From a virus: DNA of 64,000 nucleotides. Location of the stretch: IMG/VR virus record IMGVR_UViG_3300012949_000670; one strand, given 5' to 3'. Under the pieces are notes generated by a model. The model was not told the DNA's origin, ran no database searches, and saw nothing but the letters and a program-made list of their open reading frames with translations. The position numbers and the translations under genes are program-made. The first letter of the stretch is position 1. Each line of letters opens with the position of its first letter. Positions 1 to 64,000 of the stretch are shown piece after piece.

Positions 1-209
1 CCTTTCTGCATCATGATGTCCAGCAGCCACACTTTTGCAGAAAGGTTTTTTTCATTTACATCCCTGAGCGCCTCATCAGTGGAGTTGTAGGTCTTGATTT
101 TTAGCGATGTTCCAATTTCCTCGAAAATGAGTTCCATGACGTTGGTAAACATCGTCGTCATGAAGGTCTCATCATCGATGCAAATGATGTCGTATTGATA
201 TTCACTCAT
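1..209 (-). CDS. Response-regulator receiver (CheY-like) protein, truncated by the window edge
   Basis: Manual translation MSEYQYDIICIDDETFM...KVWLLDIMMQK has the acidic pocket (IDDE) and the phospho-acceptor strand (LLDIMM). RBS GAGGAG lies upstream. Absent from the ORF track because it is partial. Confidence 0.8.
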   Translation of the reverse strand, partial: MSEYQYDIICIDDETFMTTMFTNVMELIFEEIGTSLKIKTYNSTDEALRDVNEKNLSAKVWLLDIMMQK

Positions 210-276
210 ACGGAAAGCAACTCCTCGCATTGAGAATAAGGGTTCTTTATTAGGACGAATATCTTTCCGATTTGAC

Positions 277-313
277 AAAACAAAAGGGACGTTTCACGCA
301 TCCCTTTTGTTTT
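277..313. terminator. Intrinsic terminator downstream of the pilin gene
   Basis: AAAACAAAAGGGA / TCCCTTTTGTTTT, 13-bp inverted repeat. Confidence 0.7.
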
Positions 314-362
314 CATGAGAATATCAGATTATGTGTTAGGCATTTGAACCGATGCGCCACTG

Positions 363-755
363 CTATTCGCCAGTGCTACAACTCCAACCGATTGTGTGGG
401 AGAGTCCGAGAGCATCGAACACGGCTGAGACAATCGCCGCTGCCAGAGCGATAATTGCGATGCCTATCGCCAGCTTCTTCAGATATTCTCGCGTCTGGCC
501 GCCGGCCTGTGGGTTGAAGATTTCATAAATCTGGATAAGGCCATAGAAAAGCAGACCACCGATAGCACCGATGAAGGTGAGGTTGCCAACCAACTCCGAT
601 ACTTTGCAGAGGAACGTTTCGATGTCCGCTCCACCTGTACCGCCATTGCCGCCAGAGGCAAGCGCCATCATGGGCAAAACGAGCAGCCTGTGTGTCCACT
701 GGTTGTAGACAGCGGCGTCCATCATCCCTTTGACTTTTTTGACCACATTCACCAT
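363..755 (-). CDS. TrbC/VirB2-like conjugative pilin
   Basis: 130 aa with a leader, a Gly-rich linker and two hydrophobic helices separated by a short basic loop (REYLKK). Strong RBS AAGGAG. Confidence 0.6.
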   Translation of the reverse strand: MVNVVKKVKGMMDAAVYNQWTHRLLVLPMMALASGGNGGTGGADIETFLCKVSELVGNLTFIGAIGGLLFYGLIQIYEIFNPQAGGQTREYLKKLAIGIAIIALAAAIVSAVFDALGLSHTIGWSCSTGE

Positions 756-831: not shown

Positions 832-2442
832 CTACGGTGTAGCGGTTGGTGCAGGAGTTTCTGTCTCATTCTGCATTTCCAATGAGTAGTTGTTATTGCC
901 GATAACCATCTGAATGGCGTTCACGTTAGAAAGGTTGATGTTGACCGAGTAGCTAATATCAACCTGCGTCAAAGACGGTTGGAAGTAAACCGGGGCGGTC
1001 GGCAGAACTGCTTCGCCATTGACCAGCAGTTTGCAGTTTCCACACAGCTCGGGCTGTGCATCTGCCAGCATCTTATACGGAACGTGAACTACCATCAGCT
1101 TGTTCAATGGCTGGTATTCAGCGCTCATTTGAGCGGCGTCAATTGCAACGTACTCTAAAGGTTGGGGCGGGACAATCTGCCCGGATACAGCATATTCCAT
1201 TCCGTCTGCATTTACAGTGAAGGTGAAATCAATGGTGGAATTGGATTTCAATGTGTAGAACGTAACCTTCAGGTTCCCCGCCGCGTAATCCGGGATAACT
1301 TCATCCGGGGTGTAGGTCATGCCTGCTTCGAGTTCGTAAATGCGCAGGGTCAGAAGGTCAAGTTCTTCCGGGTTGATAGGCCGGATGTAGAAAACAACCT
1401 TCATGTAAGTGTCATCATTCGGAACGAGGAAGGCGCGTTCAGTAATGCTGGCTACCACATCACCAATTTGGAACGGGGTATTGTCGCCAATATAGCTGAC
1501 GGCGTTTGCGGTCTTATCGCCACTGACTTCCTTGATGTTGTTGACGTTTTCATCTTGGTCAGGAATTGCCACAATCATGCGCCGGGTCGGAACATTCAGC
1601 AGCTTGCCATCCTTGTCGCGCTGCCCGAAGAAAATTATCGTCAGCTTCGGCTCGTTCTGGCGAAAAATCGTGGTGTCCGTCATGTTGACTTCAGTGATGT
1701 TTTGGATGGTATAGGTGGCGCTGCGCTGCCCAAATTGGACAACCAGTTTATCGCCCGCAGCAGCTTGACTGAAGTAATTTTCAAAAGCCTCGTAGCGGAA
1801 ACCGATAATCGTATTGACCACGCTACCCTGCAACCAGCAGGCGGTATTCGGGGCGGCTTTTGAGAAGTCGCACCACATACTGCCCCGCTTGATGAGTTCA
1901 TCAACAGAATCATTTACAAAGACCTGTACATCTGCAACCCCGTTTTTGCCTTTAATGACAAGTGCCTCGGGGCGGGCATAGCTGCTGGTGAAGTTCTGCT
2001 TGGAGTTCTTGATGTCAATGGAGTAATCCACTGGTGCCTGAACGACCACGGTCGGCTCGGGGGTTGCCTTTTCTCCACCGCCAAACTTTAGCCCACCGCT
2101 TTTGGCAATCCACAGCACAATCAGAATGACAATGGCGATAGCAATCGGAGCAATACGCTTGATAAGGAGCTGATTGCGGTCGCTGACCTCGGCAATCTGC
2201 TGCGCTTCTCTGGGCGACCGGAAGTTAGTGGCGTTCCTTCCAGCGTTGTCGGAAAGAAATACTTTTTCACCCGTTGGGGTAATAGTCATACCATGCTCAA
2301 CTTCCGCCAGAATGCTTTTCAGCACAGCCACCTTTTCATCAGCCGGGGAGTCGGCAGTGATGCCAGCGTCCCGGTAATAATCCCCGATATACCTATCCCA
2401 TTGGGCTGTTAGTTCGTTATAAACAGTATCTTGAATGTTCAT
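832..2442 (-). CDS. Membrane-anchored protein with a degenerate sortase-like domain
   Basis: One TM helix at about aa 96-113. aa 156-294 follow sortase topology (NTIIGFR...GDKLVV...YTIQNITEV...KLTIIFF...RRMIVA). Confidence 0.5.
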   Translation of the reverse strand: MNIQDTVYNELTAQWDRYIGDYYRDAGITADSPADEKVAVLKSILAEVEHGMTITPTGEKVFLSDNAGRNATNFRSPREAQQIAEVSDRNQLLIKRIAPIAIAIVILIVLWIAKSGGLKFGGGEKATPEPTVVVQAPVDYSIDIKNSKQNFTSSYARPEALVIKGKNGVADVQVFVNDSVDELIKRGSMWCDFSKAAPNTACWLQGSVVNTIIGFRYEAFENYFSQAAAGDKLVVQFGQRSATYTIQNITEVNMTDTTIFRQNEPKLTIIFFGQRDKDGKLLNVPTRRMIVAIPDQDENVNNIKEVSGDKTANAVSYIGDNTPFQIGDVVASITERAFLVPNDDTYMKVVFYIRPINPEELDLLTLRIYELEAGMTYTPDEVIPDYAAGNLKVTFYTLKSNSTIDFTFTVNADGMEYAVSGQIVPPQPLEYVAIDAAQMSAEYQPLNKLMVVHVPYKMLADAQPELCGNCKLLVNGEAVLPTAPVYFQPSLTQVDISYSVNINLSNVNAIQMVIGNNNYSLEMQNETETPAPTATP

Positions 2443-2474
2443 AAAAGTTATCTCCTAGTCGGAAGGTGTTTCGC

Positions 2475-4550
2475 TTACGGAATGACAGAACTGTGCGAAA
2501 AATTCGGCACTTTGATTTCGAATTCCGGTGATGAATTCGCTGAGAACGCGGCGTTTATGTTGAGCAAAGGAATAATAAAGTGATACTGGCTGGGCGTATC
2601 TTTCAAGGTCATCGAGATTTGCCCCAGTTCGTTGGTCTCAATGACTTTGACGATTTTCTTCGTCTTCGTATCCTGAATGAAGATTTTGATGCCCGCAACG
2701 CCTTCGTCCAAGTCGATTTTGCCATTCCCATTGATGTCATTGAACACAGCGAAGCTGTACTGGTAAATCTTTGTGTTCGGAATAACCGGAGTCGGATTTT
2801 GAACACCAGTCAACTTGACCGCGAATGGAATGCTCTGCGGAAGCGGCGTGGGGGTCGGCTGAGGAGTAGCCGTAGGCGGGGTTACAACACCGCCCGAGGG
2901 CGGAGAAGGCGGAGTTGTTGGGGCAGCAGTCGGCTTGGGCGGGTAGCCTAGACCTGTTTTGCAGCGGAAGGTGTACTGGACTGCGCCAGCAGCAGGGTCG
3001 ACGACAGTTGGGTTTTCCAGAGCAACCTTGAAGAAAATCTGCGTATTCGCCGGAACGTTGTGCAGAACCACACGAGGGTTTACCCCTTCATAGTTCGTGA
3101 AAATGTCCGGGCGAATTTTGTCGCCGTAATCGCCGCGACCGGCAACATGGCCGTAAATCACCAGGTCTAAGTTAGAACTTGTGCTGACCGCTTCGCAGTG
3201 CATGTCCATGTCTTTCGGAGCAACAAACGTGAAGTAGTCCTCATCCGGGTTTTGCAGAGTGCTGAACATGGTTAGACCGGTGATTTCCTGGTCATAACCA
3301 ATCACCGTTGCTTTATCTTCCGAGTTGTTCGGTTCGAGACTATCTTCCGTACCCCGAATTTGCGGGACATAAGCAAAGTGGAACGAGTATGTTCCAAACT
3401 TGCTGTAATCGGCATTAGGCTGGTTGCCGTAGATGTCGAAGTACACTATGGCCGGGGCATCAACTGCGAACTGAATTTGCGGGTTCACCGGGCCGCCGTC
3501 ATTACCAACGACATAGGTTTCGGTGCGGCCGTCCTGATGGATAATTTTTACCTTCATGTCGGGGTCAATCAGGGTGTCATTTGATGAAGTAACAACCCCG
3601 GCGTATTTGCCTTTGTCAATATTGACCTTGAAAAAGTCGTGGTCGCCAGCCGTTAGGGTCAGATTTTCAATTTTCTGACCAGCGACGATGGCGGTCGCGG
3701 TTTCTTCCGTGTTATTGCTGTTGGGGAATACGTCATACATATCATTCCCGCCAGCGGTTGTATACATAACGCTGAGAGAATAAGAACCATAAGCCGTGTA
3801 ATCTACGTTCTTATCAGCGCCGGAAACGCAGACCTTTACTGGAAGGTTGTTGGTGATATTCGCTTGAACCAGCGGGAAGCTGCCATTTCCATCTGACCGC
3901 AAAACCTGACCAACGATTGAACCTTCGAGAGAAGTGCAGTCGTTGGCGCTTGTCCCCTGTCCCTGATAGATGCCGACATTCAACGCAATCGCCGGGTTGC
4001 TAGGTTTGACAGAGAATGTATAAAGCCCCTGCGACAGCGTAAAGGTGAACCAATCCACGTCGCTCTGACCGATGGTCAGACCGGCGTACTCATAGTTCGG
4101 AACCAGATAAGAAGCGGCTTCCCATGAGTTGTTCGGTTCGTAAACGTCTGCTGGCGGAGTGGTTGGGGTCGGAGAAACGACACTCTGAACAACGACCACA
4201 TCCGCTTCTGCAAAACCGCTGGTACCGCAGGCGTTTTCTGCCCGTACCCAAATGTGATAGCGGTGGTCGAGCGTGAAGCGGAACGGATAAGAAGTTGTAT
4301 TACCGATATTTTCAATTGGCGCTTCCACCGTGCTTCCCAAATCCTGCACCTTGATGGAATAAGACGTAGCGCCCGGAACGGGCTGCCAGCTAATCGTTGT
4401 GACGTTGGCTTGAATTTGTCCGTTGGGTGTTAGCCCTTGCGGGACATTCGGTGGTGCGGTGCAGGTTTGTGCCTGTGCGACAACAACCGGTGTGCCAAGC
4501 GCTCCTAAAGCGATAAAAAACGCAAGAAAAATACTGACCAATTGCTTCAT
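2475..4550 (-). CDS. Secreted multidomain surface protein (FN3-like, three PPC-like repeats, Pro/Thr linker, SdrD-B-like C-terminus)
   Basis: Signal peptide MKQLVSIFLAFF... with the start moved to the ATG at 4550. DVYEPNN/DSLEPNN repeats and FNDINGNGKIDLDEG. Confidence 0.7.
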   Translation of the reverse strand: MKQLVSIFLAFFIALGALGTPVVVAQAQTCTAPPNVPQGLTPNGQIQANVTTISWQPVPGATSYSIKVQDLGSTVEAPIENIGNTTSYPFRFTLDHRYHIWVRAENACGTSGFAEADVVVVQSVVSPTPTTPPADVYEPNNSWEAASYLVPNYEYAGLTIGQSDVDWFTFTLSQGLYTFSVKPSNPAIALNVGIYQGQGTSANDCTSLEGSIVGQVLRSDGNGSFPLVQANITNNLPVKVCVSGADKNVDYTAYGSYSLSVMYTTAGGNDMYDVFPNSNNTEETATAIVAGQKIENLTLTAGDHDFFKVNIDKGKYAGVVTSSNDTLIDPDMKVKIIHQDGRTETYVVGNDGGPVNPQIQFAVDAPAIVYFDIYGNQPNADYSKFGTYSFHFAYVPQIRGTEDSLEPNNSEDKATVIGYDQEITGLTMFSTLQNPDEDYFTFVAPKDMDMHCEAVSTSSNLDLVIYGHVAGRGDYGDKIRPDIFTNYEGVNPRVVLHNVPANTQIFFKVALENPTVVDPAAGAVQYTFRCKTGLGYPPKPTAAPTTPPSPPSGGVVTPPTATPQPTPTPLPQSIPFAVKLTGVQNPTPVIPNTKIYQYSFAVFNDINGNGKIDLDEGVAGIKIFIQDTKTKKIVKVIETNELGQISMTLKDTPSQYHFIIPLLNINAAFSANSSPEFEIKVPNFSHSSVIP

Positions 4551-4659
4551 ATAAAGTATTCCCTTTCCCAACAGCGAAATGGTTGTTGATAAATGATGAT
4601 TATTCGCTCCGATATGCAAAATCACCGATTTTCCCGTCCTCCAAATTGGAGAGACGTTT

Positions 4660-6000
4660 ATGGAAAATTTCATTGGGCATATCATCGGACTGGACTTAGT
4701 GTTTTCAGGATTGAGCGGTTTTTCTGTTTTCAAAAACAACAAACTTCTCGCATATGGATTGCTCAATAAAAAGACGCAATCGACAACAAATGCGCAGGAG
4801 AAAGTAAAGCATTCCCTGTATCTTGCCGACCGGCTGTACCAACTTTTTTCCAAAATCAATAACAACCAGACCGTTTGCGTGATTGAAAAATCAGACTGGC
4901 ATCAGAAAGGGGGAGAAAAGAAACGGGTTTACGTCAAAGGCAGATGGGTGACGAAGGTCGTCAACGCACAGTCAGCCGGGCGTGAACGCAATGCCCTGAA
5001 ATCGCTGGCATTGTCCCGTGGGGTGGTCGTGAGTCTCCTGCTGGCGATGGATGGGAAGATTACCCCCTATTACATGACAGTTGACGATGTGCGCGGGGCG
5101 CTGCTGACATCCAGCCGGGCGAAAGAAGCGATGTTCCAAAAAATCCGACAGCTTTATTTTCTGGATTTGGAAGAAACCACTGAAAACATGAACATCACGG
5201 ATGCGATTGCCCTGCCGACAGCATTTTTGAAAATTAGCCAGCTTCCTAACGGAAATGCACGAAAAGTCAAACAGGCGAAACAGCTCGCCCATTCTCGTGG
5301 AGCGATTGGGGCTTTCATGCACGCGATAAACGATATGGGATTCACCAATTATGGGGAGACCCGGACGCTGTACCAGCCGGAAAACGTTCAAAAACTGGCG
5401 CAAATCCGCAAGCCGCTGATGGAGTGCAATAAAAAGCACATCCTACGGCCGCAGGCCGCAGCGGAAGATTATTTTGTATCGGTCGATGTTTCTGCCCGGC
5501 ATCCGGGGGTTGTGGTCGGCAGTCCGGCCGAAAACGGCGCAATCAATCTGGCGTTCCATAAAACCTACGGACTGGAAAAGAAAATGCCGGACACAGCGGA
5601 TATTAGCTATGAACTGCTGGTCGCTGCCAACCTTTTGCTGTCTTTAGCATCTGTTTATGCACTGTATCCGCTGAAGGGAATTGTCTTTGAATATTCCGAC
5701 TGGCATCGAGCCGGGGCAGGGCTGGATTACCAGATTGACATCAAAGCGATTAACAGCCTGTTTTTCACCTACGGTGTCCTGATGGGGTTGGCTTATTTTT
5801 GGAATATCCCCCTGTATGCAGTCAATGCAACCGATGCCAAAAAACTGCTGTGCGGCAAAAGAAACGCCACTAAAGCAGATGTTAAAAATTATATAAATAA
5901 ACGCTATCCACAACTCAAAAATGAACATACCAGAGATGCGGCGCTCATATTGGAATATTTTTTAAAAAGCCAATCGCTATCATATAAAGGAGGTAATTAG
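4660..6000 (+). CDS. ruvC: Tandem double RuvC-like Holliday-junction resolvase
   Basis: Two RuvC-like units: IIGLD...IEKSDWH...RGVV...ITDAIA and VSVD...FEYSDWH...YGVL...KKLLCGKRNATKADVK...RDAA. Confidence 0.7.
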   Translation: MENFIGHIIGLDLVFSGLSGFSVFKNNKLLAYGLLNKKTQSTTNAQEKVKHSLYLADRLYQLFSKINNNQTVCVIEKSDWHQKGGEKKRVYVKGRWVTKVVNAQSAGRERNALKSLALSRGVVVSLLLAMDGKITPYYMTVDDVRGALLTSSRAKEAMFQKIRQLYFLDLEETTENMNITDAIALPTAFLKISQLPNGNARKVKQAKQLAHSRGAIGAFMHAINDMGFTNYGETRTLYQPENVQKLAQIRKPLMECNKKHILRPQAAAEDYFVSVDVSARHPGVVVGSPAENGAINLAFHKTYGLEKKMPDTADISYELLVAANLLLSLASVYALYPLKGIVFEYSDWHRAGAGLDYQIDIKAINSLFFTYGVLMGLAYFWNIPLYAVNATDAKKLLCGKRNATKADVKNYINKRYPQLKNEHTRDAALILEYFLKSQSLSYKGGN

Positions 6001-12158: not shown

Positions 12159-12171
12159 GGAGTATTGTTGA

Positions 12172-51085: not shown

Positions 51086-51688
51086 TTACGGGTTATTACC
51101 AGCAACGATAGTGAGGGTCGTTTCGCTGACGTAAGTACCAGCCTTTGTGGTGGCGGGGACAGTCAGCTTGAAATCGGGCTGGAAGCCGTACTGACCCATA
51201 CCTTCAGCGTAGGGTTCTTCCAATTCTTCCGCCGAGCGAGCAACCAAAATGGTCTGGCTTGCACCCAGAGGGGCGAAGTCATCAGCCCAGGCCGCGCCAA
51301 CCTGCGGCAAAGCCGAGGAGGACTGGTCGTCTGTAATGTCAGCGACGGTATCCTGAGAAAGTTTCATTTTTAGCAGGTCTTTGCCTTCATAAACCAGCGG
51401 GATGGTAGCGCCAGATTCATCTTCGTTGACGAATTCGCCAACCTCCAGCGTCATGTACCAACCGGCGGCTAGACCCGTAGCGTCACGAACTTCCCAGCGC
51501 TCGTTGTCAATATCTTCGACTTCCAAGGTGGAGCCGGTCAGTTGAGCATCACCGAAGTGAATATCAGGCTCGTTCTGAATCATTGGAGAAGCCTCACCCA
51601 TGACCGTGACGGAAGCGTCAGCAAATGCCGGGATGACCGTTCCGACAACCAGCAGAGAAAGCGCGAGTAAACCAAGAACTTTCTTCAT
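51086..51688 (-). CDS. WxL-domain-like secreted protein
   Basis: Signal peptide. VRDATGLAAGWYMTL...LTVPATTKAGTYVSETTLTI. Confidence 0.75.
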   Translation of the reverse strand: MKKVLGLLALSLLVVGTVIPAFADASVTVMGEASPMIQNEPDIHFGDAQLTGSTLEVEDIDNERWEVRDATGLAAGWYMTLEVGEFVNEDESGATIPLVYEGKDLLKMKLSQDTVADITDDQSSSALPQVGAAWADDFAPLGASQTILVARSAEELEEPYAEGMGQYGFQPDFKLTVPATTKAGTYVSETTLTIVAGNNP

Positions 51689-51763
51689 TGTGAAAAAACC
51701 TCCGAAGTTTAATTATGAGCAGACCGTTGGTTTTTGCTATAGGCGACCCGCCCTCATAATCGC

Positions 51764-51783
51764 ACGCAAGGCCATCATATTTG
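51764..51783 (-). promoter_or_regulatory. Shared 20-nt upstream motif, copy 2 (WxL gene)
   Basis: ACGCAAGGCCATCATATTTG, 19/20 identical to 802-821. Confidence 0.55.
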
Positions 51784-51916
51784 AGTCGCCTTATCACCGA
51801 TACCTATTCATAGACGAATATCTTTGCAAAGTCCTGAATCTCGTCCAATTTTTCTGATTCGGAAAGATATTTATCATTTGGGTGGAGTTTTAGCAATTTA
51901 CAACAGGCATAGTTAA

Positions 51917-51957
51917 ATCAAAAAGCCGACTCCTATTTTGGGAGTCGGCTTTTTGAT
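51917..51957. terminator. Terminator after the DUF916-like gene
   Basis: ATCAAAAAGCCGACTCC / GGAGTCGGCTTTTTGAT. Confidence 0.8.
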
Positions 51958-51960
51958 AGT

Positions 51961-57088: not shown

Positions 57089-57114
57089 ATAGCTTTTCTC
57101 TCAGATTTTCTGTT

Positions 57115-59325
57115 TTAGTCCACAAAACCCGTCCACGGATGGTTCATCAGCCATTCGTTTCGGGCTTTGGAGTTGTCGCCGCCCATCCATAGGGCTATTT
57201 TGTCGTTTGCCGCTTTCGCGTCCTGAACGGTAAGCTGAACATCGCGGTAGGCGAAGTCTTCCAGCGAAACGTTTTTCGGTGTGTGTTCTTCCTTGTTGCC
57301 GTTTTTGCCGCGTTTCTTCGCATACCCCGGCGGAACGACCAGAACGGTTTCTGCTAACTGTTCGGCGTTCATTTCACCCAAACCCTTGTAGCGGGTGATT
57401 TCAACGTTCTGGAAACCACCAAACTTCTTTACAATTTCATCGCGTTCCGCTTCACTATAGGCGTATTCATACTCTTTGGTTTTCTTGTGCTGAACACGGA
57501 ACAGCGGCGGGCGGGCGGCATACAGCTTACCCGCCTCAATCAGCGGGCGCATGTAGCGCCAGAAGAACGTCACCAAAAGCGCCTGAATGTGCGCACCGTC
57601 AACGTCAGCATCCGACATCAGGACAACACGCCCATAGCGCATATCTTCCAGGTTGAAATCCGGGCCGATGCCAGCGCCAATCGCCGTCACCAGCGAGCGA
57701 ATTTCATCATTTTCGAGAATTTTGGAAAGCTGTGATTTCTTCGCTACGTTTTCCGGTTTACCACGAAGCGGCAGAATGGCATGGAAGCGGCGGTCGCGCC
57801 CCTGCTTCGCAGAACCACCGGCGCTGTCACCTTCCACAATATACAGGGCGGTGAATTCCTTCGGGACAACCGGTTCGCCGTTGACGCGGGAAATATCTGC
57901 TGTCTTACCGACAAAATTTACCCCGGCATCCAGACCAGACTTCTTAATCATGGTCGCCCGGACTTTGGTCGCCGCATCACGGGCTTCCTTCGCGGTCATT
58001 GCCTGTTTGACAATCAGCTTGCCAATCTCGGCATTTGCCGGTTTCGAGAAGAACTCGGTCATGTAATTGTAGGTAGCCGACATAACCGGGCCTTTGACCT
58101 CACCGGAGTTCAACGCCTCTTTGGTCTGCGAGAGGAACTGCGGGGTGTTGGTCATCGTCACACTGACGATAGCGGTCATACCGGCAAAAACATCTTCATT
58201 CTTGAAGTCATCTGCCGATTTGACCCACTTTTTTGCCACCGCAACCGTATTGATTGCCCGGCTGAACCCTGCCCGGAAAGCCGACACGTGAACACCACCG
58301 AGACTGGTGGGGATGGAGTTCACGAAAGAAACAATATTTGTTTCCCCGCTTTCGTTTGCTGTGTATTGGATGGCGATATTGGTTTTGATGGTGTGCTTGA
58401 CACCATTCAAATCTACCTGTTCTTCCGCCTGGAAAATAATGGGCTTGTGAAGAACAGCCTGCCCTTCGTTCAGGTAGGCGATGTAATCCTTCAAACCGTC
58501 CTTGCTGTAATAAACCTTTTTCTGTCTTTCCGCAGAAGGAACTCTCTTATCCAAAAATTCGATTTTTACGCCCGGATGCAGGAAAGCGATTTGGGCAAAG
58601 CGAGTTTCCAGACGATTGGTATTCCAGGGGACGTTCTTTTCTGGGTTTTCCCATTCCAGACTGGGGGAGAACCATGCCCGGTTCGGGCGAAAGCGAATCT
58701 CGGTGCCGGTGCCCTGATTTGGGTCGGGGTTCACGGTGACTTTTTTGCCGTCCACCGTCAGCGATTCGCAGATGCCATTTTTGTTTAAATTCAGTTTGGT
58801 ACTGGCGTTGATTTCGCCAACCTTTTGTTTGGTGGCATCGAAAATCTCAACCGGGGTCATCTTACTGCCGCCGTTCTCAAAGCGTTGGGTGAAAACCAAC
58901 CCGTGCCGTTTAACGGTCACGACAACGAAAGACGACATAGCATTCACGGTTTTCAGACCAATGCCGTGCAGACCCCCCGATGCAGAGTAAGCCGAATCAC
59001 CATTCGACTTTTTGAATTTACCGCCCGCATGGGGTTTGGTCAGAACAACGGTCATGGCGCTGCACTCGATGTCCGGCTTATATTCCACCGGGATGCCGCG
59101 CCCATCATCCGACACGCTGATGGTGCCATCCTTTTCGATGACGACGGTAATTTTGCTGGCAAATCCCGTCTGACATTCATCAATAGAGTTGTCAACAACT
59201 TCCAACAAGATGTGGTGGAGGCCGTGTTCCGCCGTATCCCCGATATACATACCAGGGAGTTTGCGGATGGCTTCCAGAAACTCCATTTGTGTGATGTCTG
59301 CCGAAGAATAATTTTGATTGGGCAT
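57115..59325 (-). CDS. gyrB: Type IIA topoisomerase subunit B (GyrB/ParE)
   Basis: EVVDNSIDE, DDGRGIP, SGGLHGIG, EGDSAGGS, PLRGK, DADVDGAHI, RYKGLGEM. Start moved to MPNQNY. Confidence 0.92.
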   Translation of the reverse strand: MPNQNYSSADITQMEFLEAIRKLPGMYIGDTAEHGLHHILLEVVDNSIDECQTGFASKITVVIEKDGTISVSDDGRGIPVEYKPDIECSAMTVVLTKPHAGGKFKKSNGDSAYSASGGLHGIGLKTVNAMSSFVVVTVKRHGLVFTQRFENGGSKMTPVEIFDATKQKVGEINASTKLNLNKNGICESLTVDGKKVTVNPDPNQGTGTEIRFRPNRAWFSPSLEWENPEKNVPWNTNRLETRFAQIAFLHPGVKIEFLDKRVPSAERQKKVYYSKDGLKDYIAYLNEGQAVLHKPIIFQAEEQVDLNGVKHTIKTNIAIQYTANESGETNIVSFVNSIPTSLGGVHVSAFRAGFSRAINTVAVAKKWVKSADDFKNEDVFAGMTAIVSVTMTNTPQFLSQTKEALNSGEVKGPVMSATYNYMTEFFSKPANAEIGKLIVKQAMTAKEARDAATKVRATMIKKSGLDAGVNFVGKTADISRVNGEPVVPKEFTALYIVEGDSAGGSAKQGRDRRFHAILPLRGKPENVAKKSQLSKILENDEIRSLVTAIGAGIGPDFNLEDMRYGRVVLMSDADVDGAHIQALLVTFFWRYMRPLIEAGKLYAARPPLFRVQHKKTKEYEYAYSEAERDEIVKKFGGFQNVEITRYKGLGEMNAEQLAETVLVVPPGYAKKRGKNGNKEEHTPKNVSLEDFAYRDVQLTVQDAKAANDKIALWMGGDNSKARNEWLMNHPWTGFVD

Positions 59326-59483
59326 AAACCTCTCCAATAAGTTTTACTGATTCTATGTTAGCAGTGAGAATTTCAAAAATGGCATCAGAGGTAAATTTAT
59401 ACTAATTATACAAAGCATAAATCACCCACGACACCAATTGGAAAAATCGCATAGAACCTTTGTTCTTATTATATCCCCAAAAT

Positions 59484-59542: not shown

Positions 59543-61216
59543 TTACTCCACTGCTTTGCGCATTTCGTACAGCATCAGAGTTTTCTTGCTGAGAACTTTT
59601 TCGCCCTGATGGAGTTCATTCATCGTCAGGGAAACCGGCCATTGGCTTGTCGGGTCGTATTTGGCATTAAAGTAAACTGTCACAGGTTCACTCATATTCC
59701 AATCCTCCAATATTTCTGTGACCGTAAAATAAGAGTTCCAGAAAGAAATACGGGCGAACCCTTCCTTACCGTGCGTTGGATTTTCCTTGAAAATGATAGT
59801 GGTATACTGCCCGTCTTTCAATGGAAGAATCCGGTCAATGTACACGTCTTTTGCCACATATTCGGGGGTTGGATTGCCCAAACCATGCGGCTCGGTCAGG
59901 TAGGTTGCCATTGCCGCGCCCCGGATGTCATCATTTTGCAGAGAAACTGGCAGAGCCTCCTTTTCTTTTGTTTCAGGATTCAGCTTCAATTTGCCGAACC
60001 CTTTTTTGATTTCCTCAAATTTATCCGGTTCATAGCTAAAGCCGGCCGCCATCTCGTGACCACCAAAACGCAGCAGGTGTTTTTTTGCTTTTTTCAAGAT
60101 GTCATCCACCAGATGAACACCTTTGACACTGCGTGCCGAACCGACCATTGTATCGCCAGCAGGACAGGCGACCAGGGCGGGCTTGTCGAACAGTTCCACC
60201 AGCTTGGAAGCAATCAGGCCAACGTACCCCGGCAGGGCATCTTCCACTTCGATGAAAATCACCGGTGAGTCGTCATCCAAAAGAGTCGGCATCACCCGGT
60301 CACAGATTGTTTTGACATCATCCTGACGCTGGTTGTTGGCCTGGTTCAGCAGATTGACCGCTTCGATGTCACCTTCGAGGGCTTTCAGGGCAATCATCGG
60401 GCTTTCCCCAATGCGGGAGATGGCGTTGATACGCGGCCCCATGATGAACCCGAAGGAATAGGCGTAGAATTTTTCGTTTCCGTTCAGGTTGTATGCCCAT
60501 GATGGTTGGCGTTTGTTCAAATAGCCCAAACCGAGTTTGGTAATGGCGAAATTCGCCGGGTTGTTGAGCGGTGTGAGGTCGGCAACCGTACCAAAGGCAC
60601 CTAACCCGACCAAATCACCATTTTCATAGATTTTAGAATCCAGCAGGGCGATTGCCATACAAAACGAAATGCCGGCCGAACACAGCTCGATGCCCCTGAA
60701 ATCATGTCCGTTGATAATGGTCATATTTTCCGGGGCGTTAGAAACAAGCTGCTTATCGATGATGTGGTGGTCAAAAACAAGATAACGGGTCTGCGGATTT
60801 TGGCGAGCATGTTCGTGCAGCAGAACGTCATTTGTCCCGCAGTCCACAGTAATCACCAGCTCCGGTTTGAGTTCATTTAGCTTGTCAATGCTGTCTGGGG
60901 TGATACCATACCCGCTTTCACGTTTGGGCAGGTAAATCTCAATTTGCGCATCTGGCAAAACCTGTCGCAGGGTCTTCAGCCAGATTTCGCCGGACGTGAT
61001 GCCGTCCACGTCATAATCGCCATGCACGAAAATGCTGGCGGGTGGATTAGGAGCGACCACTTCATTCCAGACCGTGCGGATGTGGTCTATTAGCTTTTTG
61101 GTATGCGCGGTAAACAACTCCATCGGCGGGGTCAGGAACCATTCTGGTTTCATTCCCGTCTGGGCAGCAATCTGGTCGACATACCCTTTCGTTTGCAGTG
61201 ACATGTTATTTTTCAT
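59543..61216 (-). CDS. recJ: RecJ ssDNA exonuclease (DHH family)
   Basis: HGDYDVDG, TVDCG, DHH, GTVADL, GPRINA, GSARS, FGGHEMAAG. Confidence 0.92.
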   Translation of the reverse strand: MKNNMSLQTKGYVDQIAAQTGMKPEWFLTPPMELFTAHTKKLIDHIRTVWNEVVAPNPPASIFVHGDYDVDGITSGEIWLKTLRQVLPDAQIEIYLPKRESGYGITPDSIDKLNELKPELVITVDCGTNDVLLHEHARQNPQTRYLVFDHHIIDKQLVSNAPENMTIINGHDFRGIELCSAGISFCMAIALLDSKIYENGDLVGLGAFGTVADLTPLNNPANFAITKLGLGYLNKRQPSWAYNLNGNEKFYAYSFGFIMGPRINAISRIGESPMIALKALEGDIEAVNLLNQANNQRQDDVKTICDRVMPTLLDDDSPVIFIEVEDALPGYVGLIASKLVELFDKPALVACPAGDTMVGSARSVKGVHLVDDILKKAKKHLLRFGGHEMAAGFSYEPDKFEEIKKGFGKLKLNPETKEKEALPVSLQNDDIRGAAMATYLTEPHGLGNPTPEYVAKDVYIDRILPLKDGQYTTIIFKENPTHGKEGFARISFWNSYFTVTEILEDWNMSEPVTVYFNAKYDPTSQWPVSLTMNELHQGEKVLSKKTLMLYEMRKAVE

Positions 61217-61219
61217 ATT

Positions 61220-63064
61220 TTATCCATCAATCTCTGTTTCAAATTGCATGTTTGCGACCAGCGTCCTCAAGGTTGCAAGGCGGTCTTTGATTTCTTGTTC
61301 CTTTTGCCCGTCATGCGAATCATTCATAAAATACTTCTTTGCCACCAGCGACCTGTACTGATTGAGAAAATCTATTCGATTTTGAAGTTTCGACCAAAAC
61401 TTTGCGGGATTGATTTTCGACTGTTCTTCAATGTTCGGAAAAGCTCGGGTATCCACGACGACTGGCGTCATAGGGTATAGCCCCGCCTGTTCGATGAGCG
61501 TGTTAATGACTGCCAGAATCTCTGGTGAGCGCTTGATGGCCAGCAATTTTGGGAAGTTAGCCCGATAGTAACGGATAACTTTTTCATCCGTATAAACGGG
61601 CTTTTCATCAGCGCCATTTTCCGCATTCACTTGAGCTGGATTATCGGACTGAGCATTTGCAGCCGTATTGCTCGCAGGGTTGTTATTTGTCGGTTTTTTT
61701 GTTCCGTTGCGCGCCGGAAACGAATGCTGGTGCTGATACTTCGGCTGGTCAGGCGTTTTTTGCGCGAGACTATTGAAATAATTCGTGATGTCTAGTTCCA
61801 ACTTTTCCGACATGCGCTTGAAATACGCCTGACGGGTTATCGCCGGGAAATTACGAATCGACTTTTCATGGTTCTCGAACAGCCACGCCCGCCTGTCGGC
61901 AAAGTCTTCAATTTGCGAACCTTCATAGATAATTTTGGTCGCAACATAGTTTTCCGGGGAAAGCGCCTTGTTCATCACTTCCAGAGCGGCTGCTGTCCCG
62001 TATTTCAGTACATATTCATCCGGGTCATACCCTTCGGGCAAGAAGGCAATCTTGAATTTGACTTTCGGATTGGCATCGATGAAAGGGAAAAGAGTATTGA
62101 CACACAGCTTGAACGCCCGTTTGTATCCAGCCTCGTCCCCATCGAAGCAGAAAATCAGTGTTTGGGAAAAACGCATAAGAGTCTGAAAAATCTCAGTATC
62201 ATTTGCACCCAAACCCAAAAGCGCCAGCATGGGGATGCCTTCCTGCTGCATCACCATCGCGTCAAACGCACCTTCGCCTAATGCAACAAATCCGTGCTTT
62301 TTGACCAGCTCCCGGAACTTGCTGCCGTAACCAAAAGCTGCCTTGCGCTTTTCAAAGATTTCTGTCGCCGGAGAGTTTTTGTACTTGGGGGCTTTTTCCT
62401 TCAGCTCGCCGGTAGCAAACGGGTCTAACCGTCCAGTAAAAGCGATGATGTTTTCAAATGGGTCATCATCTTCTGTACCGCCCCGGAAATCCTTCACCGG
62501 TGCGACAATGCGGCGGTTAAAAACCGGGACGTATTTCCCATCCAGCAGCGACATCACCCCCGCTTTTACGAATTCTTCGTACATCTCCGGCTGGTCGTTG
62601 AGGACGTGAGATTTCAGCGCCCAGCCCAGCCCGAAATATTCGATGCTTTCAGCCGTCAGCCCGCGCTGTTTTTTCAGGTAGTCCAAAATCACCGGCGTTT
62701 TAAGAAGCTCTTCATGGTAAATCCTCGCCATGTCACCGTTGATTTTGTACAGCGCCTTGCTCTTTTCTGAGGCGCTGTTATTCACCAATTTTACACCATA
62801 GATTTTTTCTGCAATATGCAGAGCCTGGAGAAAATCAACTTCTTCCAATCGCATGATGAGCTTTACGGCATTGCCGCTTTCATCGCACTTCCCAAAGCAC
62901 TTCCACAGCTTCTTTCCATCTGCCGTTTCAAACAGGGAAAATGACGCTCCATGTGTCTCATGATGTCCCGGCAGAGGGCAGGGGATATTGCTTCCCTCTT
63001 TGAAGGGAATATTGTAATAGGTCAGTACGGTGCGAGGGTCAAGCTCACTAATTTCTATCGACAT
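61220..63064 (-). CDS. dnaG: DNA primase
   Basis: CHC2 Zn finger, PKYKNSP, TOPRIM GEGAFD, FDGDEAG, YDPDE. Confidence 0.92.
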   Translation of the reverse strand: MSIEISELDPRTVLTYYNIPFKEGSNIPCPLPGHHETHGASFSLFETADGKKLWKCFGKCDESGNAVKLIMRLEEVDFLQALHIAEKIYGVKLVNNSASEKSKALYKINGDMARIYHEELLKTPVILDYLKKQRGLTAESIEYFGLGWALKSHVLNDQPEMYEEFVKAGVMSLLDGKYVPVFNRRIVAPVKDFRGGTEDDDPFENIIAFTGRLDPFATGELKEKAPKYKNSPATEIFEKRKAAFGYGSKFRELVKKHGFVALGEGAFDAMVMQQEGIPMLALLGLGANDTEIFQTLMRFSQTLIFCFDGDEAGYKRAFKLCVNTLFPFIDANPKVKFKIAFLPEGYDPDEYVLKYGTAAALEVMNKALSPENYVATKIIYEGSQIEDFADRRAWLFENHEKSIRNFPAITRQAYFKRMSEKLELDITNYFNSLAQKTPDQPKYQHQHSFPARNGTKKPTNNNPASNTAANAQSDNPAQVNAENGADEKPVYTDEKVIRYYRANFPKLLAIKRSPEILAVINTLIEQAGLYPMTPVVVDTRAFPNIEEQSKINPAKFWSKLQNRIDFLNQYRSLVAKKYFMNDSHDGQKEQEIKDRLATLRTLVANMQFETEIDG

Positions 63065-63404
63065 AAACTCAGCCTCTTTATCAACTCGTAATCAATTTTT
63101 ATTATAGGAACGAGAAGCCGGGGGGGATTTCAGGGCTTAATGGTAGACGCAATCACCGCCGATATGTGCATTTCCGCCACATACAGAAAAAAGGTCGTTT
63201 AAATGCCATTACCCGCCACATATGGGGAGTATCATGCAAAAGGTATCACATATGGGCAAATCAGTGGTAATCGAGCAATATTTTTAAAAATTCATTTCAA
63301 AAATAATAGGAAATTTCTCCGAAGAAGTTTGGACAATGATTCTATTTTGGAATTGTTGTGCGTCAATTTAATGGTGATATTGAATCAGAATGTGGAGAAA
63401 ATGG

Positions 63405-64000
63405 ATGATGCTAGATGAAATCAGGATAAAACAGGCAATAGAAAGCGGGCAAATACAGGGTTATTATGATTGGCAAGATGTGGGAGTCTTTGGCGTCCCT
63501 AGCTTCCAGGTCAAAACGGTCAGCAACGGGGTCAGCATTGAAACGATTGCTCCGTTCGTGATTGATTTAGGTGTCATTGATGCGAACACGCTGAAAAGGA
63601 TTGTCAACAACCACAATCGGGAAAATGGCTGTGTCATCTCCTTGAAAAGCTATTTCCTTGTAGATAAAAGCGACAATATCGCCTGGGTTATCCTCGATTA
63701 TCTGGTGCCCGCATTGGATAATGATTCAATATGGCTAAAAAAAATCGCTCATCCTATCCACTCACTTGCAAACCAAAACCTGTTGGATTATCTCAACAAA
63801 TTAGAACTGATAAACGCACTCAAACCGCTGGTGGAATGGCCGCAGGGATTTTCCAAGTTTGTCCTTGACAACCGACCGCGCTCTCGTGGAGTAGGGACAC
63901 AGCTGGTCGCAGATAGAAGCCTGCCTGTACTGATGGAAATGCTTTCAGCGGATTACGAAATATTGCCCGGTCAAACACAGCAAAATTATGCTCTGTTTTA
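63405..64000 (+). CDS. Hypothetical protein, truncated by the window edge
   Basis: Manual translation MMLDEIRIKQAIESGQIQGYY... is open to the end of the window. GGAG upstream. Confidence 0.6.
   Translation, partial: MMLDEIRIKQAIESGQIQGYYDWQDVGVFGVPSFQVKTVSNGVSIETIAPFVIDLGVIDANTLKRIVNNHNRENGCVISLKSYFLVDKSDNIAWVILDYLVPALDNDSIWLKKIAHPIHSLANQNLLDYLNKLELINALKPLVEWPQGFSKFVLDNRPRSRGVGTQLVADRSLPVLMEMLSADYEILPGQTQQNYALF

What the first reader, a model, noticed from the sequence alone, without database searches (positions are those of the whole stretch)
1..64000. Giant element with its own replisome, sigma factor, S21 and conjugation genes, probably in a Chloroflexota host
Seen: divergent dnaE, dnaG, ssb, topo IIA A/B, recG, recJ and a RuvC-like gene, plus a sigma-like factor, rpsU and pyrG. 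These are interleaved with T4SS/Tad genes and many unknown ORFs, and no ordinary metabolic or ribosomal operon context is present. Known: DnaE, S21 and pyrG occur in jumbo phages, and megaplasmids can carry DnaE. Inference: a largely autonomous megaplasmid or ICE-like replicon. Host hints are the Anaerolineae-style LysM-M23 (VTCGQPV) and the PTATP linkers.
Basis: partly seen in the sequence, partly recalled or inferred. Interest (0 to 1): 0.85.

Follow-up and report, generated by a model that had tools for sequence, protein, structure and literature searches.

The report
Giant Anaerolineae-linked conjugative-type genetic element
This 64-kb window is an internal piece of a DNA element of at least 400 kb, found in anaerobic digesters, that carries its own deeply divergent DNA-replication genes, a secretion/pilus machine and a few translation genes. 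It has borrowed genes from Anaerolineaceae bacteria, so it is most likely a previously undescribed giant plasmid-like element of that group, not ordinary chromosome.

Summary
The window encodes DnaE, DnaG, GyrB/GyrA, RecJ-like, RecG-like and RuvC-like proteins, an SSB, S21 and PyrG. It also has a Tad-type pilus block and a VirB4/coupling-protein T4SS block. About 45% of its ORFs match no family. The sigma-like call rests on weak evidence only.

The same DNA lies inside contigs of 295,894 and 399,701 bp and occurs in at least 17 digester studies. RNA-library contigs also cover it. I read 109.7 kb in all. Beyond the window it adds a tmRNA, a 7-tRNA array, a type I-D cas effector operon, DHFR, ThyA, a DnaQ-like exonuclease, RNase H, orphan methylases and ART-PolyVal genes. 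It shows no rRNA, no ribosomal protein other than S21, no aminoacyl-tRNA synthetase, and no capsid, terminase or portal match.

DnaE belongs to a tiny isolated clade, four 50%-identity clusters among 1.84 billion representatives. GyrB/A, PyrG and S21 are Anaerolineae-like, and GyrA nests among chromosomal Anaerolineaceae genes. A syntenic relative carries an unrelated topoisomerase at the same site.

Best reading (0.58): a giant conjugative-type element of Anaerolineaceae. Circularity, a relaxase and the rest of the contig were not seen, so a huge phage or an unbinned small cell are not excluded.

The parts
363..755 (-). T4SS-type pilin (VirB2-like), 130 aa
   Evidence: PF18895, E 1e-5, 25.8 bits against a cutoff of 26.6, so borderline. 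The exact protein is on 36 collection blocks.
832..4865 (-). Two large secreted or surface proteins (536 and about 716-796 aa) with fn3/Ig-like stretches and PTATP linkers
   Evidence: Weak fn3 match. PTATP motifs present. The 'tail protein' PHROG hit covers only 45 aa of an Ig-like stretch.
4660..6000 (+). RuvC-like protein, 446 aa
   Evidence: phrog_159 RuvC-like resolvase, E 3e-13, residues 370-439 only.
6840..8822 (+). RecG-like SF2 helicase
   Evidence: DEAD/Helicase_C domains. TIGR00643 scores 231 bits against a cutoff of 659.
10455..16854 (+). Tad-type pilus block: CpaE/TadZ-like ATPase, SAF/CpaB-like protein, TadA/VirB11-type ATPase, and two unassigned 332/334-aa proteins in the TadB/C position
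   Evidence: CbiA borderline; SAF E 2e-8; T2SSE E 1e-18. VirB11/TadA NCBIfam E 6e-35 / 2e-27, both below cutoffs.
17597..18673 (-). Sigma-70-like candidate, 358 aa (weak)
   Evidence: phrog_1740 sigma factor, E 0.002. Atlas feature score 0.95 and TM 0.44-0.49 to sigma-70 clusters, lead only. No PDB sequence match.
19048..21561 (+). Small membrane protein followed by a VirB4-like T4SS ATPase (705 aa)
   Evidence: NF045971 conju_CD1110, E 2e-22. Best plasmid match is Herpetosiphon aurantiacus pHAU02 VirB4-like: 26% identity over 86% of the query, E 5e-28.
21591..23696 (+). Very acidic 701-aa protein with a 39-nt tandem repeat; function unknown
   Evidence: No family match. Tandem repeat at 22893-23041.
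23869..26067 (+). Coupling-protein (VirD4/TrwB)-like ATPase candidate, 732 aa
   Evidence: Atlas score 0.94, with 186-199 shared features to TrwB_AAD_bind/DUF87/T4SS-DNA_transf clusters. No Pfam or PDB sequence match. 56% identical to the syntenic relative.
26057..34410 (+). T4SS-associated envelope block: YdjM, M23 peptidase, five unknown ORFs including the SSB, a ParA-like ATPase, and LysM-M23
   Evidence: Pfam. Colinear in the relative L089 at 35-75% amino-acid identity, with ParA-like the best conserved at 75%. The M23 domains are 66-73% identical in nucleotides to more than 40 Anaerolineae genomes.
31777..32220 (+). SSB, 147 aa
   Evidence: C-terminal DDIPF. OB-like topology in a low-confidence model. 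Foldseek top hits are SSB/PriB, E 5e-4, TMt 0.53-0.65.
34490..34987 (+). 165-aa ORF ending just before the dnaE start; conserved next to dnaE in two relatives
   Evidence: Called in three assemblies. Homologs sit in the same position in L089 and L091 at 48% and 26% identity. The model is uninformative, pLDDT 51.
35000..38446 (+). DnaE-type Pol III alpha, 1148 aa, without the OB domain
   Evidence: Pfam; NCBIfam. Only three word-search relatives. Four 50%-identity clusters in 1.84 billion representatives, then a drop from 1150 to 852 bits. Isolated clade on a long stem.
38559..38765 (-). Ribosomal protein S21
   Evidence: PF01165, E 1e-10. 44-56% identical to Anaerolineae S21. No match in 50,697 phage records.
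38795..41611 (-). Conserved 701-aa protein with a DarT/ART-like C-terminal lead, followed by a 231-aa unknown protein
   Evidence: 59% identical to the relative. Atlas structural lead: TM 0.60 to DarT for residues 510-701. No padloc, Pfam or PHROG match.
41724..42617 (+). J-domain protein
   Evidence: PF00226, E 1e-22, residues 3-64 only.
42693..44649 (+). Variable cassette with an orphan N6/N4 DNA methyltransferase (43547-44299)
   Evidence: PF01555, E 9e-36. A DNA contig of run X6 joins 42693 to 44649, skipping 1955 bp. Absent at this site in the relative L089.
44702..46303 (+). PyrG (CTP synthase), host-like cargo
   Evidence: NF003792 scores 783 bits, above cutoff. 62-65% identical to Leptolinea, Longilinea and Anaerolineales PyrG. 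Absent from the syntenic site in the relative.
46604..49540 (+). RGR-repeat protein (538 aa), then a DNA-methyltransferase-domain protein with AT-hook-like tails (400 aa)
   Evidence: PHROG methyltransferase and polyvalent-protein families, E 3e-11 to 6e-9, for 48338-49540. The relative's homolog has a faint AT_hook match.
49644..53139 (-). Signal peptidase I, two paralogous proteins of about 200 aa, and a 392-aa protein
   Evidence: PF10502, E 1e-42. Syntenic in the relative at 35-50% identity.
54272..59337 (-). gyrB-gyrA operon of the Chloroflexota 'second type IIA topoisomerase' kind
   Evidence: Pfam. GyrA is 65-67% and GyrB 72-74% identical to chromosomal pairs. Nested at 99* and 100* support in a 15-row clade. 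Clade members are named Anaerolineaceae. The relative element has an unrelated topoisomerase there.
59543..63064 (-). RecJ-like exonuclease and DnaG primase
   Evidence: DHH/DHHA1; DNAG_N, Toprim_2 and a zinc ribbon. TIGR00644 scores 229 and TIGR01391 scores 193 bits, both below cutoffs.

Best explanation
The window is an internal segment of a giant mobile replicon of at least 400 kb. It is either a megaplasmid-like extrachromosomal element or a very large integrative conjugative-type element. Its hosts are Anaerolineaceae-type Chloroflexota in anaerobic digesters.

Shown:
- An old backbone specific to the lineage. It holds a DnaE without the OB domain plus a conserved small partner ORF, an SSB, a VirB4/coupling-protein T4SS with cell-wall hydrolases, a Tad-type pilus block and S21.
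- Genes taken from the host: the second gyrB-gyrA operon and pyrG.
- Anti-restriction-type genes: orphan methylases and ART-PolyVal.

Inferred:
- The element replicates with its own Pol III-type polymerase, primase, SSB and topoisomerase.
- It supports its replication and expression with nucleotide-supply genes (PyrG, ThyA, DHFR) and translation helpers (S21, tmRNA, Leu/Tyr/Cys tRNAs).
- It protects itself with methylases and a type I-D cas effector that lacks an adaptation module.
- It spreads, or contacts cells, through the T4SS/Tad apparatus.
For: 1. Size and spread. The DNA is 99.97% identical to ENA contig k141_34440 (295,894 bp) and lies in JGI contig SAHD_10000128 (399,701 bp). It is held by runs of 17 studies, and contigs from RNA libraries cover all 30 bins of 30-50 kb.

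2. Content of the 109,736 bp read. One tmRNA (126.6 bits), a 7-tRNA array, S21, and no rRNA, other ribosomal protein, aminoacyl-tRNA synthetase, RNA polymerase or central metabolism. The informational genes are strongly biased to DNA replication, repair and nucleotide supply.

3. No terminase, portal or capsid PHROG among 59 unassigned proteins. No relative in IMG/VR: the window's own DnaE peptides and the 701-aa protein are not found, and the best viral DnaE is 37% identical.

4. Not in any of 185,579 GTDB species genomes by two signature proteins, nor in 401 Anaerolineae genomes by profile. None of the checked clusters (GyrA and the DnaE clade; the PyrG cluster's sources are masked) has an NCBI source. 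This fits a replicon that binning discards.

5. Mosaic ancestry. DnaE is an isolated 6-row clade (100*) on a stem of about 1.1 substitutions per site, outside Chloroflexota, CPR, Bacteroidota and Bacillota DnaE. GyrA is nested among chromosomal Anaerolineaceae genes. PyrG is closest to Anaerolineales.

6. A relative with 60% DnaE identity is colinear over about 27 kb. It lacks the methylase-PyrG insert and has a CTD-less topoisomerase only 30% identical at the gyrA site. That is module replacement typical of mobile elements.

7. VirB4's best plasmid match is a Chloroflexota plasmid (Herpetosiphon pHAU02), whose VirB4 region also carries an SSB gene and an M23 peptidase.

8. Strain-level indels fall at methylase/ART-PolyVal islands.
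Against: - No relaxase, oriT, replication initiator, replicative helicase, clamp or clamp loader was found in the part read.
- The coupling-protein and sigma calls rest on leads only.
- Circular closure and extrachromosomal state are untested. About 290 kb of the longest contig was not readable with the tools left.
- tmRNA, tRNA arrays, S21, cas without cas1/2, DHFR, ThyA and PyrG are also the signature of huge phages.
- No CRISPR-spacer-like match to the window (15.0-34.9 kb) was found in 401 Anaerolineae genomes.
- The element's tmRNA is not close to any of 151 Anaerolineae tmRNAs.
- Host assignment therefore rests on gene phylogeny alone.
Confidence: 0.58

Rival explanations
1. It is a huge phage, or a phage-plasmid, of Anaerolineae, and its structural and packaging module lies in the roughly 290 kb not read.
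For: The gene set matches what is reported for huge phages: tmRNA, tRNA array, S21, cas effector genes without cas1/2 or an adjacent array, DHFR, ThyA, PyrG, DnaE, topoisomerase II, RNase H, orphan methylases and a phage-like sigma lead.
Against: - No capsid, terminase, portal or sheath PHROG in 109.7 kb.
- The 399.7-kb JGI contig and all clade relatives are absent from IMG/VR.
- It carries a VirB4 T4SS, a T4SS pilin, a coupling-protein-like ATPase and a Tad block. VirB4 has 35 plasmid matches but only one weak phage match.
- A survey of envelope proteins in 7,187 huge-phage genomes does not mention T4SS or Tad.
Confidence: 0.15
2. It is part of the genome of an unbinned, small-genome bacterium, for example an episymbiont related to Chloroflexota or CPR, and the 'housekeeping' genes are simply its own.
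For: tmRNA, tRNAs, S21, DnaE, DnaG, gyrase, SSB, signal peptidase I, DnaJ, HSP20, ThyA, DHFR and PyrG are all cell-type genes. T4SS pilins, LysM-M23 and many ORFans are common in CPR bacteria. A distant relative's contig carries an MFS transporter and a peptide-binding protein.
Against: - In 109.7 kb there is no ribosomal protein other than S21 and no aminoacyl-tRNA synthetase, elongation or initiation factor, RNA polymerase subunit, Sec, Fts, Mur or ATP-synthase gene. In a genome of 0.4-1 Mb such genes occur every few kb.
- GyrA is nested inside a Chloroflexota paralog clade, while DnaE is outside all sampled phyla. That discordance is not expected of vertical descent.
- The topoisomerase is replaced between relatives.
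- It is absent from GTDB species genomes despite presence in 17 digester studies.
Confidence: 0.1
3. It is a chromid or secondary chromosome, or an unusual chromosomal region, of an Anaerolineaceae bacterium rather than a transmissible element.
For: GyrBA, PyrG, S21 and the M23 domains are Anaerolineae-like. The cumulative GC skew rises across nearly the whole 110 kb, as on one arm of a large replicon. Chromid-like replicons are reported in Ktedonobacteria (PMC13289182, listed).
Against: - DnaE is only 37-43% identical to the Anaerolineae genomes' own DnaE and lacks its OB domain.
- The tmRNA is unlike Anaerolineae tmRNAs.
- The signature 701-aa protein is in none of 401 Anaerolineae genomes.
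- About 45% of ORFs have no family.
- T4SS, ART-PolyVal and orphan methylase islands point to horizontal transfer.
Confidence: 0.12

Closest known systems
Conjugative megaplasmids (over 350 kb), e.g. the 'Hodor' megaplasmids of gut Bacillota (PMC12934698), and the general megaplasmid concept (PMC8628078)
   Same: Size class of hundreds of kb; a VirB4-type T4SS; many hypothetical genes and envelope/secretion genes; host-derived cargo.
   Different: - No relaxase, Rep or oriT seen yet.
- Carries a lineage-specific DnaE, primase, SSB, topoisomerase II, tmRNA, S21 and a tRNA array.
- That preprint's text has no mention of Pol III, tRNA, tmRNA, gyrase or ribosomal proteins.
- The inferred host phylum is Chloroflexota.
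Huge/jumbo phages (over 200 kb)
   Same: tRNA arrays, tmRNA, S21, CRISPR-Cas without an adaptation module, DnaE, topoisomerase II, and nucleotide-metabolism genes (DHFR, ThyA, PyrG). The comparison with huge phages rests on my knowledge of the literature, which I did not read here.
   Different: No capsid, terminase or portal in 110 kb; not in IMG/VR; has VirB4, a coupling-protein-like ATPase, a T4SS pilin and a Tad block.
Borgs and jumbo ECEs of Methanoperedens (PMC9605863, PMC13444090), and the oral 'Inocle' ECE (10.1101/2024.09.30.615745)
   Same: Giant elements known only from metagenomes, of unclear plasmid or virus nature, mostly hypothetical genes plus host-derived genes, found by assembly rather than binning.
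   Different: Bacterial Chloroflexota host rather than archaea or Streptococcus. No sequence relationship was tested or seen. Replication here is by a DnaE-type polymerase.
Herpetosiphon aurantiacus plasmid pHAU02 (CP000877.1, 99 kb)
   Same: Best PLSDB match of the VirB4-like ATPase. Its VirB4 region also carries an SSB gene, an M23 peptidase and a small ORF just upstream of virB4.
   Different: Only 26% VirB4 identity; four times smaller. No DnaE, gyrase or Tad genes appear in the 22-kb region read. Class Chloroflexia, not Anaerolineae.
Giant linear plasmids of Mycobacterium avium with a tRNA array unit (PMC12803027)
   Same: A large plasmid carrying a clustered tRNA array, which that paper's abstract regards as a putative anti-defence system.
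   Different: Different phylum. The array here has 7 tRNAs (Leu x4, Tyr x2, Cys). Linearity is unknown here.

Membership tests
Conjugative plasmid / ICE (T4SS-mediated) | VirB4-family ATPase | tested here: met
   NF045971, E 2e-22, plus four further VirB4/TraC conjugal-transfer ATPase models among the eight families matched, though all are below curated cutoffs. tblastn match to pHAU02 VirB4-like, E 5e-28.
Conjugative plasmid / ICE (T4SS-mediated) | Type IV coupling protein | tested here: inconclusive
   Only a language-model lead: score 0.94 to TrwB_AAD_bind/DUF87 clusters. No Pfam, PHROG or PDB sequence match.
Conjugative plasmid / ICE (T4SS-mediated) | Relaxase and oriT | tested here: inconclusive
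   No relaxase family among the window proteins or the 46 kb of flanks. About 290 kb of the contig was not read. oriT was not searched.
Megaplasmid (extrachromosomal replicon over 350 kb) | Size over 350 kb | tested here: met
   Contig of 399,701 bp carrying the window's exact DnaG and pilin proteins.
Megaplasmid (extrachromosomal replicon over 350 kb) | Physically separate, closed replicon with its own initiator and partition system | not testable with these tools
   Contig ends could not be fetched. Only a ParA-like ATPase was seen.
Tailed (huge) phage | Major capsid protein, large terminase, portal | tested here: not met
   None among 59 unassigned proteins of the 109.7 kb read at E <= 1e-3. 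This covers only about a quarter of the contig, so it is not met for the part read.
Cellular chromosome | rRNA genes, ribosomal-protein operons, aminoacyl-tRNA synthetases | tested here: not met
   No Rfam rRNA in the window, L098 or L101. Only S21 among ribosomal proteins, and no aminoacyl-tRNA synthetase, in the part read.
DnaE (Pol III alpha, C-family polymerase) | PHP, polymerase core, fingers and HhH domains | tested here: met
   PF02811, PF07733, PF17657 and PF14579, all far above cutoffs. TIGR00594 scores 787 bits.
DnaE (Pol III alpha, C-family polymerase) | C-terminal OB fold (PF01336), present in nearly all listed cellular DnaE hits | tested here: not met
   Absent from the window protein and its three clade relatives. 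Present in all but one of the other 116 hits listed, the exception being P0227.
DNA gyrase / topoisomerase IV | GyrA and GyrB domain sets in an adjacent B-A operon | tested here: met
   Pfam. NF004044 subfamily scores 697.6 against a cutoff of 654. The GyrA and GyrB equivalogs are below cutoff. Whether it supercoils or decatenates is not testable here.
Tad (Flp) pilus system | TadA/CpaF ATPase, CpaB (SAF), TadZ/CpaE | tested here: met
   T2SSE E 1e-18, SAF E 2e-8, CbiA borderline at 25.2 against 25.4.
Tad (Flp) pilus system | TadB/TadC platform proteins, Flp pilin, prepilin peptidase | tested here: not met
   No T2SSF, Flp or peptidase A24 match. The two ORFs after the ATPase are unassigned, and the only pilin-like gene is of T4SS type.
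Type I-D CRISPR-Cas (outside the window) | Cas10d, Cas7d, Cas5d, Cas3d, Cas6 | tested here: met
   padloc: Cas10d E 7e-156, Cas7d 2e-39, Cas5d 5e-18, Cas3d 5e-52, Cas6 4e-37. No cas1/2/4 and no repeat array in the flanks read.

The most novel reading that the evidence does not exclude
This is the first member of an undescribed, ancient family of giant extrachromosomal elements of at least 400 kb in Anaerolineae. It would be a bacterial counterpart to Borgs. It replicates with a private, deeply branching DnaE lineage, carries pieces of the translation system (S21, tmRNA, tRNAs), array-less type I-D interference genes and a hybrid Tad/T4SS transfer machine, and is common and expressed in anaerobic digesters worldwide.
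Probability: 0.45. Interest if true: 0.85.

Novelty: new variant of a known kind. Interest (0 to 1): 0.72.

Why it matters
Anaerolineae are among the most abundant and least tractable bacteria of anaerobic digesters and activated sludge. I found no description of a giant mobile element for them.

- An element of this size that recurs in at least 17 digester studies, and is covered by contigs from RNA libraries, could shape host fitness, gene flow and phage defence in an industrially important community.
- Its isolated DnaE clade, combined with recently captured host genes, is a clean case for studying how giant elements assemble replication and translation modules. It also bears on where the line lies between megaplasmid, huge phage and minimal cell.
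- It shows that binning-based catalogues (GTDB, NCBI MAGs) and viral catalogues (IMG/VR) both miss such replicons.

Tried and rejected
- No whole genome is held for the window.
- Records behind assembly and metagenome loci cannot be searched or extended. So contig ends, circularity and about 290 kb of SAHD_10000128 remain unread.
- Three collection scans were saturated by over-general peptide patterns and said little: GyrA alignment in genome contigs, and the 701-aa alignment in metagenome contigs, which returned only the already known 111-kb relative.
- The tmRNA was tested as a possible integration boundary. This was rejected, because element-type genes (DUF6166, HSP20, DHFR, ThyA, unknown ORFs) continue beyond it and it is not close to host tmRNAs.
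- A CRISPR host link was sought. There is no repeat array next to the cas genes, and there are no spacer-like short exact matches of window 15.0-34.9 kb in 401 Anaerolineae genomes, only M23-domain similarity.
- The PHROG 'tail protein' hits are short Ig/fn3-like stretches, not structural evidence.
- PDB sequence searches for the sigma-like, SSB and coupling-protein candidates found nothing.
- The AF2 model of the 165-aa DnaE-adjacent ORF was too poor to use.
- GC skew gives no origin or terminus within the 110 kb.
- Literature searches found no description of this element.
- Earlier-scan look-ups by sequence and by words found nothing elsewhere.

Full report
**1. What is in the window**

The 64,000 bases are 93% coding, with 44-54% G+C. 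They contain no tRNA and no Rfam family.

- DnaE (35000-38446), DnaG (61220-63064), GyrA/GyrB (54272-59337), RecJ-like (59543-61216), RecG-like (6840-8822), S21 (38559-38765) and PyrG (44702-46303).
- DnaJ-domain protein, signal peptidase I, an orphan N6/N4 methylase and two M23 peptidases, one of them with LysM.
- A Tad-type block: CpaE-like, SAF/CpaB-like and a TadA/VirB11-type ATPase.
- A T4SS block: T4SS pilin and a VirB4-like ATPase.

Most replication and repair proteins score below NCBIfam equivalog cutoffs, so they are genuinely divergent. PyrG passes its cutoff easily.

- The SSB (31777-32220) has no Pfam match but ends in the canonical DDIPF tip. A low-confidence model of it has an OB topology, and its best PDB matches are almost all SSB/PriB.
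- The RuvC-like protein matches a phage RuvC family only over residues 370-439.
- The sigma-like protein (17597-18673) has only weak support.

About 23 of roughly 50 real ORFs have no family at all.

**2. Where it sits**

The window's exact DnaE, DnaG and pilin proteins are encoded on two large contigs. One is an ENA contig of 295,894 bp, to which the window is 99.97% identical. The other is a JGI contig of 399,701 bp. PyrG's cluster lists a 367,378-bp contig.

Runs from 17 studies of anaerobic digesters or bioreactors hold the stretch. Contigs of two RNA-library runs cover all 30 bins of 30-50 kb, with the caveat that DNA carry-over in those libraries is not excluded.

By walking out from the window I read 109,736 bp in all.

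- Left flank: a response-regulator-like protein and a histidine kinase; large unknown proteins; a complete type I-D cas effector set (Cas10d, Cas7d, Cas5d, Cas3d, Cas6) without cas1/2/4 or an adjacent array; a full-length tmRNA (126.6 bits); then DUF6166, HSP20, DHFR, thymidylate synthase, a PLD-like nuclease and more unknown ORFs.
- Right flank: unknown ORFs; a DnaQ-like exonuclease; a variable island with an MTS methylase, two ART-PolyVal genes and two N6/N4 methylases; an array of seven tRNAs (Leu x4, Tyr x2, Cys); an LTD protein and RNase H.

**3. Cell, phage or plasmid-like element?**

In 110 kb there is no rRNA, no ribosomal protein other than S21, and no aminoacyl-tRNA synthetase, translation factor, RNA polymerase subunit, Sec/Fts/Mur gene or energy metabolism. 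In a genome of 0.4-1 Mb such genes occur every few kb. Their absence, together with the heavy bias toward DNA replication, repair and nucleotide supply, argues against a small cell.

The lineage is also absent from 185,579 GTDB species genomes by two signature proteins. It is absent from 401 Anaerolineae genomes by profile. None of the protein clusters whose sources I could read (GyrA and the DnaE clade; the PyrG cluster's sources are masked) has an NCBI source. This holds although the DNA is common in digesters, which is the expected fate of a replicon without marker genes.

Against a phage:
- None of 59 unassigned proteins matches a capsid, terminase or portal family.
- Neither the window's own DnaE peptides, nor the 701-aa signature protein, nor any clade-type DnaE occurs in IMG/VR; the best viral DnaE is 37% identical.
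- VirB4 has 35 plasmid matches and one weak phage match.
- The best plasmid match is the Chloroflexota plasmid pHAU02, whose VirB4 region also holds an SSB gene and an M23 peptidase.

The phage reading still cannot be excluded. tmRNA, tRNA arrays, S21, adaptation-less cas genes and DHFR/ThyA/PyrG are classic huge-phage traits, and three quarters of the contig is unread.

**4. Ancestry is mosaic**

DnaE has only three relatives in a 5.8-billion-protein word search, at 60%, 46% and 45% identity, and all lack the OB domain. An exhaustive profile search of 1.84 billion representatives finds four clusters (2087-1150 bits) and then a drop to 852 bits. All the relatives are metagenome proteins in clusters of one or two members, four of them known only from Logan assemblies of single runs and one from JGI and ENA metagenome assemblies. 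In a tree the clade (100*) stands on a stem of about 1.1 substitutions per site, outside Chloroflexota, CPR, Bacteroidota and Bacillota DnaE. Anaerolineae genomes' own DnaE is 37-43% identical and 1265-1330 aa long.

GyrA behaves differently. It is 60-67% identical to 13 long GyrA proteins and nests (99*, 100*) inside that clade. The clade in turn lies inside a paralog clade in which every named member is Chloroflexota, distinct from the standard Chloroflexota GyrA. GyrB is 72-74% identical to the adjacent GyrB of those relatives.

Four of these relatives sit in ordinary chromosomal neighbourhoods, one of them on a 5.4-Mb contig. They share no other synteny with the window, and one has a second, canonical gyrB nearby. 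Named members are Anaerolineaceae.

PyrG is 62-65% identical to Leptolinea, Longilinea and Anaerolineales enzymes. S21 is 44-56% identical to Anaerolineae S21 and has no phage match. The M23 domains match more than 40 Anaerolineae genomes at 66-73% nucleotide identity.

**5. A relative shows the backbone and the cargo**

JGI contig Ga0134095_1000072 (111 kb) has a DnaE 60% identical to the window's. It is colinear with window positions about 23.9-54.3 kb at 35-75% amino-acid identity. The shared order runs: coupling-protein-like gene, YdjM, M23, five unknown ORFs including the SSB, ParA-like, LysM-M23, the small ORF, DnaE, S21, the 701-aa ART-like protein, DnaJ, the AT-hook protein, signal peptidase and the downstream paralogs.

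It lacks the methylase-PyrG insert. At the place of gyrA it has a topoisomerase subunit only 30% identical, which ends before the GyrA C-terminal domain. So the gyrB-gyrA operon and pyrG of the window are acquisitions from an Anaerolineaceae-type host, laid onto an older element backbone.

Strain-level variation again hits methylase cassettes. Run X6 lacks 42693-44649, and the ENA version lacks a 3.1-kb MTS/ART-PolyVal/methylase island.

**6. Conclusion**

- Shown: size of at least 400 kb, gene content of 110 kb, wide occurrence, coverage by contigs from RNA libraries, mosaic ancestry, and a conserved backbone.
- Inferred: extrachromosomal state, self-replication, transfer by the T4SS/Tad machine, and anti-defence roles of the methylases, ART-PolyVal genes, tRNA array and type I-D effector.
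- Not found: relaxase, initiator, helicase, clamp and clamp loader.

I found no published description. Known comparators are conjugative megaplasmids, huge phages, Borgs and Inocles.

Noticed in passing
L098:2165-9991 (ENA contig, about 10-18 kb left of the window start): A complete type I-D CRISPR-Cas effector operon (Cas10d, Cas7d, Cas5d, Cas3d, Cas6) with no cas1/2/4 and no repeat array in the flanks read.
   Followed up: partly
L098:71-440 (-): A full-length tmRNA (Rfam 126.6 bits; ARAGORN tag ANNRASFAALPLAV) on the element. It is at most about 70% identical over 130 nt to any of 151 Anaerolineae genomes, so it is neither a recent host copy nor an integration boundary.
   Followed up: yes
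L101:12445-13051 (about 10.5-11 kb right of the window end): A tight array of seven tRNAs: Leu(GAG, CAG, TAA, TAG), Tyr(GTA) x2 and Cys(GCA). Six of the seven are Leu or Tyr, which in bacteria carry a long variable arm. It could be an anti-defence or codon-supply unit.
   Followed up: no
L101:8068-11210: A 3.1-kb island (MTS methylase, ART-PolyVal, N6/N4 methylase) present in the Logan and JGI versions but absent from the ENA contig. A second ART-PolyVal and another methylase follow the tRNA array.
   Followed up: partly
window:42693-44649: A DNA contig of run X6 joins these two points and skips 1955 bp that hold the orphan methylase. Low-depth contigs of the same run still cover the cassette, so both forms coexist.
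   Followed up: partly
L108:2-832 (relative element Ga0134095_1000072): At the syntenic position of gyrA the relative encodes a topoisomerase IIA A-subunit fragment only 30% identical (GyrA residues 242-443). Its reading frame ends near residue 517, so it has no C-terminal beta-pinwheel domain.
   Followed up: partly
window:34490-34987: A 165-aa ORF ends 12 nt before the dnaE start. It is conserved in the same position in two relatives (48% and 26% identity), so it may be a lineage-specific polymerase partner. The model was too poor to classify.
   Followed up: partly
window:36733: RNA-run X15 contigs carry an in-frame 30-nt insertion inside dnaE relative to the window. This is a strain variant of the polymerase.
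   Followed up: no
L104:12085-20491 (left of the tmRNA): DUF6166, HSP20, DHFR, thymidylate synthase and a PLD-like nuclease (padloc type IV REase-like, E 1e-9) sit among unknown ORFs. This is a nucleotide-supply and stress module of phage-like flavour.
   Followed up: partly
L099:10570-10875: A 101-aa SLT lytic-transglycosylase gene is called in the JGI version between the cas operon and the 1077-aa gene, but not in the ENA or Logan versions.
   Followed up: no
L085:13937-15913: In a chromosomal relative a second, canonical gyrB (40-47% identical to the window's GyrB) lies 1 kb from the long gyrB-gyrA pair and is split into several ORFs. This could be frameshifts or assembly errors.
   Followed up: no
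Anaerolineae genomes G071, G099, G035 and others: Several Anaerolineae genomes give 2-4 separate S21 matches, so S21 paralogy may be common in the class.
   Followed up: no
pan-sequence, -29 kb to +77 kb relative to the window: Cumulative GC skew rises almost monotonically over the 110 kb, dipping only at 49-62 kb where genes are on the minus strand. No origin or terminus signature lies in the part read.
   Followed up: partly
L109 (G239:C224) and L110 (G159:C447): Two Anaerolineae genomes encode proteins of 1120 and 709 aa whose C-termini weakly match the ART-like C-terminal domain of the 701-aa protein (E 1e-11 and 8e-9). They may be polyvalent proteins of other mobile elements.
   Followed up: no
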